Shown piece by piece: positions 585-1,177 of a stretch of 17,241 nt of DNA. Source of the stretch: Cyanobacteria bacterium UBA11368 (GTDB taxonomy: Bacteria > Cyanobacteriota > Cyanobacteriia > Cyanobacteriales > Aerosakkonemataceae); assembly GCA_003501785.1 (NCBI GenBank), contig DNOW01000491.1, positions 3,989-21,229 of the forward strand, in the 5' to 3' direction. Below the pieces are notes generated by a model. The model did no database searches. It worked only from the letters and a program-made list of their open reading frames with translations, and was not told the origin of the DNA. The position numbers were made by a program, and so were the translations under genes. Each line of letters starts with the position of its first letter. Position 1 is the first letter of the stretch.

Positions 585-1177
585 ATGACAGATTTAATAG
601 TGGTTTATGATGCCAATGTTTTATATTCAGCATCCCTGCGCGATTTCTTGGTAGAGTTAGCACTTGCCAAGGTGTTTGAGGCTCGTTGGACAGAGGAAAT
701 TCACTCGGAATGGATACGAAATGTTCTTCTGAATCGTTCAGATTTAACCATAGAACGTCTCACGAGAACTAAAAATTTGATGAATGCAAGCGTTGAAGGT
801 TCTTTAGTCACAGGTTATGAAGAAATAATTCCACAATTGCAACTTCCAGATCTTGGCGATCGCCATGTCCTTGCAGCAGCCATTCGTTCATCTGCTAAGT
901 ACATTATTACTTTCAATCTCAGAGACTTTCCCAATGAAGCGATATGCCTCCGGCACGCTTCGCGAACGCACCATACAACGTTCAGGCAAAACATCCTGAT
1001 GTTTTTGTCCTAGACATACTTAACATTAATTCCGATGCAGTTTTTCAAGCAGCAGAAAGGCAACGCAGCAGATTAAGAAATCCGCCTAAAACCTCGGATG
1101 AATATCTGGAAACGCTGATAAATCAAGGACTTCCCCGAACGGCTGCTAGACTGAGGGAGTTGTGTTATGGGGGGTAG
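585..1177 (+). pseudogene. PIN-domain (VapC-like) toxin gene, frameshifted near 942-967; possibly inactivated or a sequencing error
   Basis: The N-terminus (MTDLIVVYDANVLYSASLRDFLVELALAKVF...DRHVLAAAIRS...TFNLRDFPNEA) is PIN-like, with conserved acidic residues (D9, E, D in DRHV). After ...NEA the reading frame degenerates (ICLRHASRTHH...stop at 1013). The conserved C-terminal part of this PIN family continues in the +2 frame as ORF 944..1177 (APYNVQAKHPDVFVLDILNINSDAVFQAAERQRSRLRNPPKTSDEYLETLINQGLPRTAARL). Confidence 0.55.
947..975. repeat. Short dispersed repeat fragment (ctccggcacgcttcgcgaacgcacc) inserted in the PIN ORF
   Basis: The 14-mer cgcttcgcgaacgc at 956-969 is the exact reverse complement of gcgttcgcgaagcg at 13408-13421, and about 22 nt of flank is similar (cttcgggaacgcttcgcgaacgcagg on the other copy). 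An insertion of about 20 nt (2 mod 3) accounts for the frame 0 to frame 2 switch in the PIN gene. Confidence 0.45.

What the first reader, a model, noticed from the sequence alone, without database searches (positions are those of the whole stretch)
940..980. PIN toxin gene apparently inactivated by insertion of a roughly 20-nt dispersed repeat, leaving an intact HTH antitoxin
The PIN ORF reads correctly to ...TFNLRDFPNEA. The conserved continuation (APYNVQAKHPDVFVLD...NPPKTSDEYLETL...) is in the +2 frame. The roughly 26 nt between them contain cgcttcgcgaacgc, which matches the repeat core at 13408-13421 exactly in reverse complement. Homologous PIN proteins have only about 2 residues here, so an insertion of about 20 nt (2 mod 3) explains the frameshift. 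If real, this is toxin inactivation by a small repeat element with retention of the antitoxin/regulator. It would be a neat example of repeat-driven decay of a TA module. A sequencing or assembly error is the alternative.
Basis: partly seen in the sequence, partly recalled or inferred. Interest (0 to 1): 0.5.

Follow-up and report, generated by a model that had tools for sequence, protein, structure and literature searches.

The report
Tiny mobile repeat splits PIN gene
A 23-base mobile repeat sits exactly inside a GCGATCGC (HIP1) motif within a cyanobacterial PIN-type toxin gene and shifts its reading frame, while the antitoxin-like gene next to it stays whole; this kind of element is rare but already described.

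Summary
The PIN gene (585-1177) carries an exact 23-nt insertion, ATGCCTCCGGCACGCTTCGCGAA (944-966). It lies between GCGAT and CGC of a HIP1 octamer that is intact in three related alleles (L001, L206/207, L208). The same interrupted allele occurs in at least nine other assemblies, so it is not a sequencing artefact.

The insert belongs to a 22-23-nt family. I found about 140 copies in roughly 0.6 Mb of cyanobacterial contigs. Most sit at GCGAT^CGC, some are tandem inside one HIP1, and some sit in the loop of a REP-like hairpin. Three compensatory changes support two mini-hairpins. This behaviour matches the small dispersed repeats of Nostoc (SDR5: precise insertion between the 3rd and 4th bases of HIP1, Elhai 2008/2015). 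Here the hosts are non-heterocystous cyanobacteria.

The insertion falls after residue 119 of 189. That is before the last beta-strand of the predicted PIN fold and before the invariant HPD and NPPKT motifs, so loss of toxin function is likely but not shown. The HTH_17 partner gene is intact.

Occupied HIP1 sites are about four-fold depleted in coding sequence. The few coding hits include two more PIN-like genes.

The parts
111..581 (+). HTH_17 (excisionase-type) DNA-binding gene, 156 aa. It is the antitoxin-like partner and is intact.
   Evidence: Pfam HTH_17 E=2.2e-6. The exact protein is in NCBI as HBE33728.1, HAZ43845.1 and HBE48636.1, and nearly all listed cluster members are also 156 aa. 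The same gene precedes the PIN gene in L001, L206, L208 and L196-L199. dN/dS against L001 is 0.215.
585..943 (+). 5' part of the PIN gene: codons 1-119 plus the first two bases of codon 120. It holds the four conserved acidic residues D9, E42, D92 and D114.
   Evidence: Pfam PIN_3 matches residues 6-112. The invariant columns are listed. The sequence is collinear with intact alleles up to GCGAT.
939..943 (+). Left half of the split HIP1 octamer (GCGAT).
   Evidence: Intact alleles read CCCAATGAAGCGATCGCACCATACAACGTT at this place.
944..966 (+). Inserted 23-nt SDR-like element, ATGCCTCCGGCACGCTTCGCGAA.
   Evidence: It is an exact 23-nt gap in the alignment with L001 and is absent from L206 and L208. 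Its placement is unambiguous, because the 5-nt prefix and 3-nt suffix account for all 8 bases of HIP1. It belongs to a family with about 140 copies in the contigs fetched here.
967..969 (+). Right half of the split HIP1 octamer (CGC).
967..1177 (+). 3' part of the PIN gene: the last base of codon 120, codons 121-189 and the stop. It is now out of frame with the 5' part. It encodes beta-strand 126-128, the invariant HPD (129-131) and the NPPKT motif (the VapC50_C region).
   Evidence: The frame is still open and all invariant residues are kept. PF26343 VapC50_C is precomputed on the homologues.
585..1013 (+). The ORF as it now stands: 142 aa, made of 119 native residues, I120 and a 22-residue out-of-frame tail.
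   Evidence: The identical 142-aa product is called on 5 other contigs.
944..1177 (+). 77-aa ORF that starts at the ATG supplied by the element and is in frame with the C-terminal part. There is no evidence that it is expressed.
   Evidence: The exact sequence is not in the 15-billion-protein collection. No Shine-Dalgarno-like motif lies upstream (read from the sequence).
18..40 (+). Second family copy, ATGCCAAGGGCTAGCTGCGCGAT, between GCGAT (13-17) and CGC (41-43), about 70 nt upstream of the HTH gene. Its terminal T regenerates a HIP1 at 36-43.
   Evidence: (D11). The same variant occurs in L038, L124, L147 and L163.
13421..13443 (-). Diverged family copy, ACCCTTCGGGAACGCTTCGCGAA (18 of 23 identical), in the loop of a REP-like hairpin (AAAGCCTGCCT|...|CGCAGGCTTT).
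   Evidence: (I2, I3). An uninterrupted hairpin unit lies at 10062-10096.

Best explanation
A 23-nt non-autonomous small dispersed repeat, SDR5-like, was inserted into the PIN gene of a VapBC50-type HTH_17/PIN pair. It went in without target duplication and in a fixed polarity, between the 5th and 6th bases of a HIP1 octamer (GCGAT^CGC, which is GCG^ATCGC on the other strand).

Because 23 is 2 mod 3, translation leaves the native frame after residue 120 and stops 22 codons later. The product keeps the four acidic active-site residues. It loses the last beta-strand of the PIN fold and the invariant HPD and NPPKT region, so the nuclease is most likely non-functional. This is a young pseudogene. 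The upstream HTH gene remains intact.

Shown here: the insertion, its exact site, the empty sites in relatives, the repeat family and its preference for HIP1, and its depletion from coding sequence.

Inferred: loss of toxin activity, and the way the element moves. My best guess for the movement is a trans-acting enzyme that recognises or cuts the apex of palindromes at T^CG. Either a PvuI-like cut at CGAT^CG or a single-strand HUH/Y1-type transposase would fit.
For: Insertion and empty sites:
- Exact 23-nt gap relative to L001, with identical empty HIP1 sites in L001, L206 and L208.
- Homologues lack any extra segment at this position.

Reality of the allele:
- The identical allele occurs in at least 9 other assemblies that differ elsewhere by 0-42 substitutions or by a 20-nt indel.

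Repeat family:
- Two exact pattern matches in the window against 0 expected.
- Cyanobacterial copies in the genome scan, 5 of 12 with exact HIP1 halves.
- 73 metagenome loci with HIP1-flanked copies.
- 139 copies within 3 mismatches, against 0 in reversed-sequence controls.
- Tandem or nested copies inside a single HIP1 (L038, L123).

Structure of the element:
- Three pairs carry compensatory double changes; 0 of 500 shuffles reach that number.

Precedent:
- SDR5 inserts precisely between the 3rd and 4th nucleotides of HIP1 (PMC4390886; PMC5861425).

Consequence for the protein:
- AlphaFold model of the intact homologue: pLDDT 95.5, pTM 0.90, with strand 126-128 and four helices after the break.
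- Foldseek aligns 141-155 columns to VapC PIN toxins, so the fold extends past residue 119.
- H129, P130, D131, F133, L156, P159 and L167 are invariant.

Selection:
- Occupied HIP1 sites lie in long open frames in 6 of 60 cases, intact HIP1 sites in 287 of 739 (Fisher p=2e-6).
Against: - No functional test exists for either allele. The PIN_3 Pfam match (residues 6-112) and all four acidic residues lie before the break, so some residual activity cannot be excluded.
- The C-terminal frame is still open with all invariant residues. dN/dS of the C-part against L001 (0.12) is not higher than that of the N-part (0.19). The only hint of decay is three window-specific amino-acid changes in the C-part (V140I, C146F at a position conserved in at least 90% of sequences, and S163) against none in the N-part.
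- The element supplies an in-frame ATG for the C-terminal piece.
- I could not compare the sequence with the published SDR5 consensus, because the 2008 paper is not held.
- The enzyme that moves these elements is unknown, so the mechanism is conjecture.
- The metagenome copies were found with a pattern that included the HIP1 halves, so that set cannot by itself measure target preference.
Confidence: 0.8

Rival explanations
1. The gene is still functional. Either it works as a split toxin, with the 142-aa PIN fragment joined by the 77-aa C-terminal piece translated from the ATG the element provides, or a -1 recoding event yields a full-length protein with about 8 extra residues.
For: The ATG at 944 is in frame with the C-terminal part, and that frame is open to the native stop. 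All invariant C-terminal residues are retained. dN/dS is not raised. The allele is fixed in every sampled assembly of this population.
Against: There is no Shine-Dalgarno-like sequence before 944 and no X_XXY_YYZ slippery heptamer in 939-1011 (read). No gene caller in the collection called the 77-aa ORF. NCBI gives no protein between HAZ43845 and HAZ43844. The break lies inside a helix and before the last strand of a single compact fold (pTM 0.90). Other copies of the same element interrupt genes in the opposite orientation, where no ATG is supplied (L126). A recent insertion explains the lack of decay equally well.
Confidence: 0.12
2. The extra 23 nt is a sequencing or assembly artefact.
For: The window comes from a metagenome-assembled genome. 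Repeats can cause mis-joins.
Against: The same junctions appear in contigs built by different assemblers and projects: megahit k119 contigs from four ERZ assemblies, two GCA MAGs and three UBA MAGs. Both flanks continue the same gene to the base. The insert is a member of a repeat family and sits at that family's usual target.
Confidence: 0.01
3. The copy did not arrive by transposition-like insertion. A break at the HIP1 site was repaired using another SDR-bearing HIP1 locus as template, which amounts to gene conversion between short homologies.
For: There is no target duplication. The insertion point coincides with the CGAT^CG position where PvuI-type enzymes cut (my own knowledge). Elhai 2015 proposes directed cutting at HIP1 as a partial explanation. 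For copies that end in T, the boundaries can also be read as a 21-nt insert flanked by an AT duplication.
Against: Only 5 and 3 nt of homology would guide such a repair. Copies also sit in non-HIP1 contexts: REP-like hairpin loops, GCGGT^ACGT in Nostocales, and heptamer arrays. The polarity is fixed. No experiment bears on this.
Confidence: 0.2
4. The 23 nt are ancestral and the 189-aa homologues lost them.
For: None beyond formal possibility.
Against: 2552 homologues across many cyanobacterial genera lack the segment. Three close alleles have a perfect HIP1 there. With the segment present the gene is out of frame.
Confidence: 0.01

Closest known systems
SDR5 and the related small dispersed repeats SDR4 and SDR6 of Nostoc punctiforme (Elhai et al. 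2008, Genome Res 18:1484; summarised in PMC4390886 and PMC5861425)
   Same: - Length in the 21-27 nt class.
- Precise insertion between the 3rd and 4th bases of HIP1 when read on the other strand.
- No target duplication.
- Many dispersed copies.
- A small predicted secondary structure supported by compensatory changes.
- Relatives embedded in heptamer arrays and in hairpin or minitransposon repeats. That these are contexts described for SDRs in the 2008 abstract is my recollection.
   Different: - The hosts here are an unclassified cyanobacterial MAG (UBA11368-71) and cyanobacteria outside the Nostocaceae: Planktothrix agardhii, Floridaenema, Microseira and a 'Phormidiaceae' MAG. The literature states that no SDR-like repeat was found outside the Nostocaceae.
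- Sequence identity with the published SDR5 consensus could not be checked.
- Close relatives of this element in Nostocales are not in HIP1.
- This copy is inside a protein-coding gene and frameshifts it.
REP/REPIN elements mobilised by RAYT (TnpA_REP) transposases, and IS200/IS605 PATEs
   Same: Very short, hairpin-forming, non-autonomous repeats. Insertion next to a specific short sequence, without duplication and with fixed polarity. The 3' end of the element (GCGA[T/A]) resembles the target (GCGAT).
   Different: This is a single 23-nt unit with two stems of 3-4 bp, not a REP doublet and not a left-end/right-end hairpin pair. No associated transposase was identified. The target is the centre of a palindrome.
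Cyanobacterial MITEs (for example Nezha) and IS elements that insert into REP loops (IS1397)
   Same: Dispersed non-coding mobile DNA. Some copies lie in the loop of a REP-like hairpin.
   Different: MITEs are over 100 nt, have terminal inverted repeats and make target-site duplications. None of these features is present here.
VapBC50 of Mycobacterium tuberculosis (Rv3750c excisionase-like HTH and Rv3749c PIN)
   Same: An HTH_17-type gene directly upstream of a PIN_3 gene that carries a VapC50_C C-terminal region.
   Different: The relationship is distant. Toxicity is untested for this family in cyanobacteria, and Rv3749c did not inhibit E. coli colony formation. The gene here is interrupted.

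Membership tests
SDR5-type small dispersed repeat | Unit of 21-27 nt | tested here: met
   23 nt by comparison of empty and filled sites. 22-nt variants that lack the first A also exist.
SDR5-type small dispersed repeat | Inserted precisely between the 3rd and 4th nucleotides of HIP1 (GCG^ATCGC) | tested here: met
   GCGAT|23 nt|CGC on the + strand equals GCG|...|ATCGC on the - strand. In the flank-free genome scan, 5 of 12 cyanobacterial copies had exact HIP1 halves and one more was tandem inside a HIP1.
SDR5-type small dispersed repeat | Found exclusively within HIP1 | tested here: not met
   Family copies also lie in REP-like hairpin loops, at GCGGT^ACGT in Nostoc and Cylindrospermum, and in heptamer-like arrays in Richelia. 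In the contigs outside the Nostocales, HIP1 or a one-mismatch HIP1 is by far the commonest site.
SDR5-type small dispersed repeat | Many dispersed copies in a genome | tested here: met
   Three copies in this 17-kb window. Seven or more in one 8-kb stretch of the related MAG UBA11372 (L038). 139 copies in about 0.6 Mb of contigs against 0 in controls. No whole-genome count was possible.
SDR5-type small dispersed repeat | Conserved small secondary structure supported by compensatory changes | tested here: met
   The structure is .((((...))))(((...))).. with 96% of cells paired. Three pairs have changes on both sides, reached by 0 of 500 shuffles. The variable positions fall in the two loops. 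The folding energy alone is not significant.
SDR5-type small dispersed repeat | Sequence match to the published SDR5 consensus | not testable with these tools
   Elhai 2008 is not held. No open-access text quotes the sequence. The first 50 kb of N. punctiforme plasmid pNPUN01 holds no copy.
SDR5-type small dispersed repeat | Host within the Nostocaceae (reported distribution) | tested here: not met
   HIP1-flanked copies occur in Planktothrix agardhii p2 (Oscillatoriales), Floridaenema, a 'Phormidiaceae' MAG and UBA11372. The window's host is an unclassified cyanobacterial MAG.
VapBC-type (VapBC50-like) type II toxin-antitoxin pair | PIN-fold protein with four conserved acidic residues | tested here: met
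   PIN_3. D9, E42, D92 and D114 are invariant. Foldseek top hits are VapC toxins.
VapBC-type (VapBC50-like) type II toxin-antitoxin pair | Small DNA-binding partner gene directly upstream in the same operon | tested here: met
   The HTH_17 gene ends 3 nt before the PIN start codon. The pairing is conserved in L001, L206 and L208.
VapBC-type (VapBC50-like) type II toxin-antitoxin pair | Toxin arrests growth and the partner neutralises it | not testable with these tools
   There are no data for this family in cyanobacteria. Rv3749c did not affect E. coli colony formation (PMC5175181). No PADLOC match.
MITE | Terminal inverted repeats and target-site duplication; length over 100 nt | tested here: not met
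   The element is 23 nt. The site comparison shows no duplication. It has no terminal inverted repeats.

The most novel reading that the evidence does not exclude
The 22-23-nt element is a recently active mobile module, aimed at the apex of palindromes (T^CG), that operates in cyanobacteria well outside the Nostocaceae. Its rare coding insertions survive mainly in PIN-type toxin genes: this VapC50-like gene, a classical VapC in L126/L131/L144, and a DUF5615 gene in L160. If so, SDR insertion at HIP1 would be a recurrent route by which toxin-antitoxin modules are disarmed. The pairs of empty and filled sites found here would make it possible to test how SDRs move and what acts on HIP1.
Probability: 0.25. 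Interest if true: 0.55.

Novelty: new member of a known kind. Interest (0 to 1): 0.35.

Why it matters
HIP1 is the most over-represented word in many cyanobacterial genomes, and its function is still unresolved. SDRs are among the smallest elements claimed to be mobile, and their mechanism is unknown.

This locus gives an unambiguous pair of filled and empty sites inside a conserved gene. It fixes the insertion point to the base and shows that there is no target duplication. It also extends HIP1-specific SDR insertion to cyanobacteria where it was said to be absent.

For toxin-antitoxin biology it is a tidy case of a toxin gene broken while its regulator is kept. For genome annotation it explains one class of 'frameshifted' pseudogenes in cyanobacterial MAGs.

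Tried and rejected
- The primary SDR paper could not be read by DOI or PMC id. A full-text search for the element's sequence found nothing relevant. The published SDR5 consensus therefore could not be compared.
- A gap-tolerant scan of JGI metagenomes for either allele of this exact site returned nothing.
Only about 12 cyanobacterial copies were usable.
- The first 50 kb of N. punctiforme plasmid pNPUN01 holds no copy, so I stopped fetching it.
- The PDB sequence search gave no relative. PADLOC gave nothing for the PIN or HTH proteins. Rfam gave nothing in the window.
- The exact 'repaired' 189-aa protein is not in the protein collection, so there is no evidence for a co-existing empty allele in this population.
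- dN/dS showed no relaxed constraint on the severed part, and the 3' end of the gene is more variable in all alleles. The age of the pseudogene therefore cannot be read from it.
- Programmed frameshifting was considered and rejected because there is no slippery site.
- The promoter and terminator scans were uninformative.
- The upstream region of L001 aligns too poorly to prove an empty site for the second copy at 18-40.

Full report
1. The observation

The ORF that starts at 585 reads a PIN-domain protein up to ...TFNLRDFPNEA. It then runs into 23 unrelated residues and a stop at 1011-1013, giving 142 aa. The conserved continuation (APYNVQAKHPDVF...RLRNPPKTSDEYLETL...CYGG) is open in the frame of position 944 and ends at 1177.

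A database search with the two pieces joined found 2552 homologues with E<=1e-10. Of the 120 listed, nearly all are 187-201 aa and most are 189 aa. They carry two residues where the window has its extra DNA. An alignment of 56 of them shows no longer segment there.

2. What is inserted and where

The closest intact allele is L001, from a Logan assembly (93% protein identity, 91% DNA identity). At this place it reads CCCAATGAAGCGATCGCACCATACAACG. The window reads CCCAATGAAGCGAT-ATGCCTCCGGCACGCTTCGCGAA-CGCACCATACAACG.

- The insert is exactly 23 nt (944-966).
- Its placement is unambiguous and nothing is duplicated.
- The target is the octamer GCGATCGC, the cyanobacterial Highly Iterated Palindrome HIP1. 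HIP1 occurs 20 times in this window against 0.3 expected.
- Two further intact alleles from other samples (L206/L207 and L208) have the same empty HIP1 site.

3. Not an artefact

The identical 142-aa product and identical junctions occur on contigs from ERZ27299524, ERZ27299533 and ERZ27299535, and from GCA_031969635.1 and GCA_036726825.1. A variant allele occurs in ERZ27299534: L002 has 42 substitutions, all to the left of position 687. The flanking proteins are deposited for three UBA MAGs, UBA11368, UBA11369 and UBA11371. There, no protein accession lies between the HTH and the next gene, which suggests NCBI treats the PIN gene as a pseudogene.

The exact repaired protein is absent from the 15-billion-protein collection, so the insertion looks fixed in this population.

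4. The element is a member of a dispersed family

A second copy lies at 18-40, again between GCGAT and CGC, upstream of the operon. A diverged third copy (13421-13443, minus strand) sits in the loop of a REP-like hairpin. An uninterrupted version of that hairpin is at 10062-10096.

Genome scan. A flank-free scan of species-representative genomes was swamped by chance hits in GC-rich bacteria, but it returned about 12 cyanobacterial copies.
- Those in UBA11372, Floridaenema flaviceps and a 'Phormidiaceae' MAG are at GCGAT^CGC. One locus has two elements in tandem inside a single HIP1.
- Copies in Nostoc, Cylindrospermum and Richelia sit in other contexts: GCGGT^ACGT and a heptamer-like array.

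Metagenome scan. A scan with the HIP1 halves included found 73 loci.
- Across all cyanobacterial contigs in hand, 102 copies match the core. About 70% end in T, which regenerates a HIP1 and explains the tandem arrays of two or three units.
- Allowing up to 3 mismatches gives 139 copies, against none in reversed-sequence controls. This set includes 22-nt forms that lack the first A.

Plasmids. Annotated plasmids add a HIP1-flanked copy between the BREX genes of Planktothrix agardhii p2. They also add relatives lying inside annotated CDSs: ssuD of Nostoc edaphicum, where the element reads as the peptide ASGTLRER, and a Fischerella transposase.

Structure. The consensus is ATGCC-(TCC/TAC/AAG)-GGCA-CGC-TNC-GCG-A(T/A). 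The variable positions are the loops of two adjacent mini-hairpins. Three stem pairs show compensatory double changes, a number reached by 0 of 500 shuffles.

5. Comparison with what is known

Elhai et al. (2008) described 21-27-nt small dispersed repeats in Nostoc punctiforme. [quoted passage not shown] They also state that no SDR-like repeat was found outside the Nostocaceae (PMC5861425).

Read on the other strand, the insertion point here is exactly GCG^ATCGC. Size, target, lack of duplication, copy number and a structure supported by covariation all match.

Two reported properties do not match. This family is not exclusive to HIP1, and it occurs in cyanobacteria outside the Nostocaceae. 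I could not compare the sequence with the published consensus.

I therefore file it as a new member of a known kind, not as a proven SDR5 copy.

6. Consequence for the gene

Pfam places PIN_3 at residues 6-112, which might suggest that the domain escapes the break. The structural evidence says otherwise.
- The intact homologue is predicted as one compact fold (pLDDT 95.5, pTM 0.90), with a beta-strand at 126-128 and four helices after the break.
- Foldseek aligns 141-155 columns to VapC toxins of 132-146 residues.
- The residues just after the break include the invariant H129-P130-D131 and the NPPKT motif.

The truncated product keeps D9, E42, D92 and D114 but loses the last strand and everything beyond it. 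Loss of function is the likeliest outcome, though this is an inference.

The pseudogene is young. The downstream frame is still open, and dN/dS is not raised (0.12 against 0.19 for the N-part). The only hint of decay is three lineage-specific amino-acid changes in the severed part, one of them at a nearly invariant cysteine, against none in the N-part.

The element happens to supply an in-frame ATG for the C-terminal piece. Nothing supports its use.

'Toxin' and 'antitoxin' are assignments by homology to VapBC50. Rv3749c itself did not inhibit E. coli colony formation.

7. Selection and recurrence

I applied one criterion to every site: an open frame of at least 50 codons on both sides. For occupied sites, the element was removed first. 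By this criterion, 6 of 60 occupied HIP1 sites lie in coding-like sequence, against 287 of 739 intact HIP1 sites in the same contigs (p=2e-6). This is what purifying selection against a frameshifting insert would produce.

Removing the element restores recognisable genes at a few sites:
- a classical VapC (PF01850) that follows its antitoxin gene, in L126/L131/L144;
- a DUF5615 PIN-like gene (L160);
- a MUG113/T5orf172 gene (L166);
- a 480-codon ORF with no family match (L139).

Three PIN-like genes among roughly five credible coding hits is striking. It is also post hoc, based on small numbers, and some loci are the same site seen in different samples.

8. Mechanism

What is shown is the geometry of insertion:
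- always after T and before CG;
- at or one base from the dyad of a palindrome (HIP1 or a hairpin loop);
- fixed polarity;
- no duplication;
- reinsertion into the HIP1 regenerated by copies that end in T.

What moves the element is unknown. One reading is a cut at CGAT^CG, the position used by PvuI-type enzymes (my own knowledge), followed by capture of the element. Another is a single-strand HUH/Y1-type transposase that recognises the small hairpins. I hold neither with more than about 0.2-0.25 confidence.

9. Verdict

The finding is a clean, well-documented example of a known but obscure phenomenon. It adds a modest extension in host range and a possible link to the decay of toxin genes.

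Noticed in passing
window 13514-16138 (+): An 874-aa ORF matches the eukaryote-type Major Vault Protein along its length (Pfam Vault 1.3e-67, MVP_shoulder 5.7e-55, Vault_2, Vault_3 and Vault_4). A full-length MVP homologue in a cyanobacterial MAG is unusual and deserves its own look.
   Followed up: no
L126 451-938 (the same site appears in L131 and L144): A classical VapC (PF01850), directly after its antitoxin-like gene, is interrupted by the same 23-nt element at a HIP1 site, in the opposite orientation. 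An intact second VapBC-like pair lies next to it.
   Followed up: partly
L160 193-215; L166 555-577; L139 11234-11264 (match site, minus strand): Removing the element restores a DUF5615 (PIN-like) gene, a MUG113/T5orf172 gene and a 480-codon ORF with no family match.
   Followed up: partly
L038 2716-2761; L123 10-78: Two and three elements sit in tandem inside a single HIP1. Copies that end in ...GCGAT recreate a HIP1 with the following CGC, which then seems to be hit again. The units differ at several positions, so simple slippage is unlikely.
   Followed up: partly
L201 1500-1525 (Nostoc edaphicum pNe_5, ssuD); L204 1500-1525 (Fischerella transposase): Close relatives of the element lie inside annotated CDSs, where they are read as ASGTLRER or, on the other strand, AFAKRAGG. 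This suggests that in-frame insertions are tolerated as short peptide inserts. No empty site was available to size them.
   Followed up: partly
window 13360-13480 and 10062-10096: A REP-like hairpin repeat (GCTACACAAACAAAGCCYGC...GCRGGCT) is present in two inverted copies. One copy carries the diverged SDR in its loop, next to further palindromic repeats (GACACCCT.AGGGTGTC).
   Followed up: partly
window 2008-2047: A perfect 20-nt tandem duplication (TTAAATAATGGCAAATAATT x2) lies in the intergenic region. Contig L197 is 20 nt shorter than the window in its aligned stretch (1-4033), probably at this repeat, which would make it a population polymorphism.
   Followed up: partly
L002 versus window 366-2138: All 42 differences lie in 368-686 (the end of the HTH gene and the start of the PIN gene), and the remaining 1452 nt are identical. 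This looks like a recombination mosaic or a chimeric metagenome contig.
   Followed up: no
window 1252-1899 (-), 3141-6023 (+), 10871-11473 (-): The neighbours are a stand-alone Cas4-like PD-(D/E)XK nuclease, a TPR-CHAT protein and a MarR-family regulator with a weak CARF-like PADLOC hit. These may be defence-related. ChlH (6073-9951) lies between them.
   Followed up: no
L196 2233-2350 versus L001 205-260: Upstream of the operon, the window's lineage has about 110 nt that L001 lacks. The extra DNA lies next to a HIP1 and contains a hairpin repeat (CAGAAACCGGGTTTCT...) plus the second SDR copy. This suggests compound insertions at one HIP1, but the alignment is too poor to be sure.
   Followed up: partly
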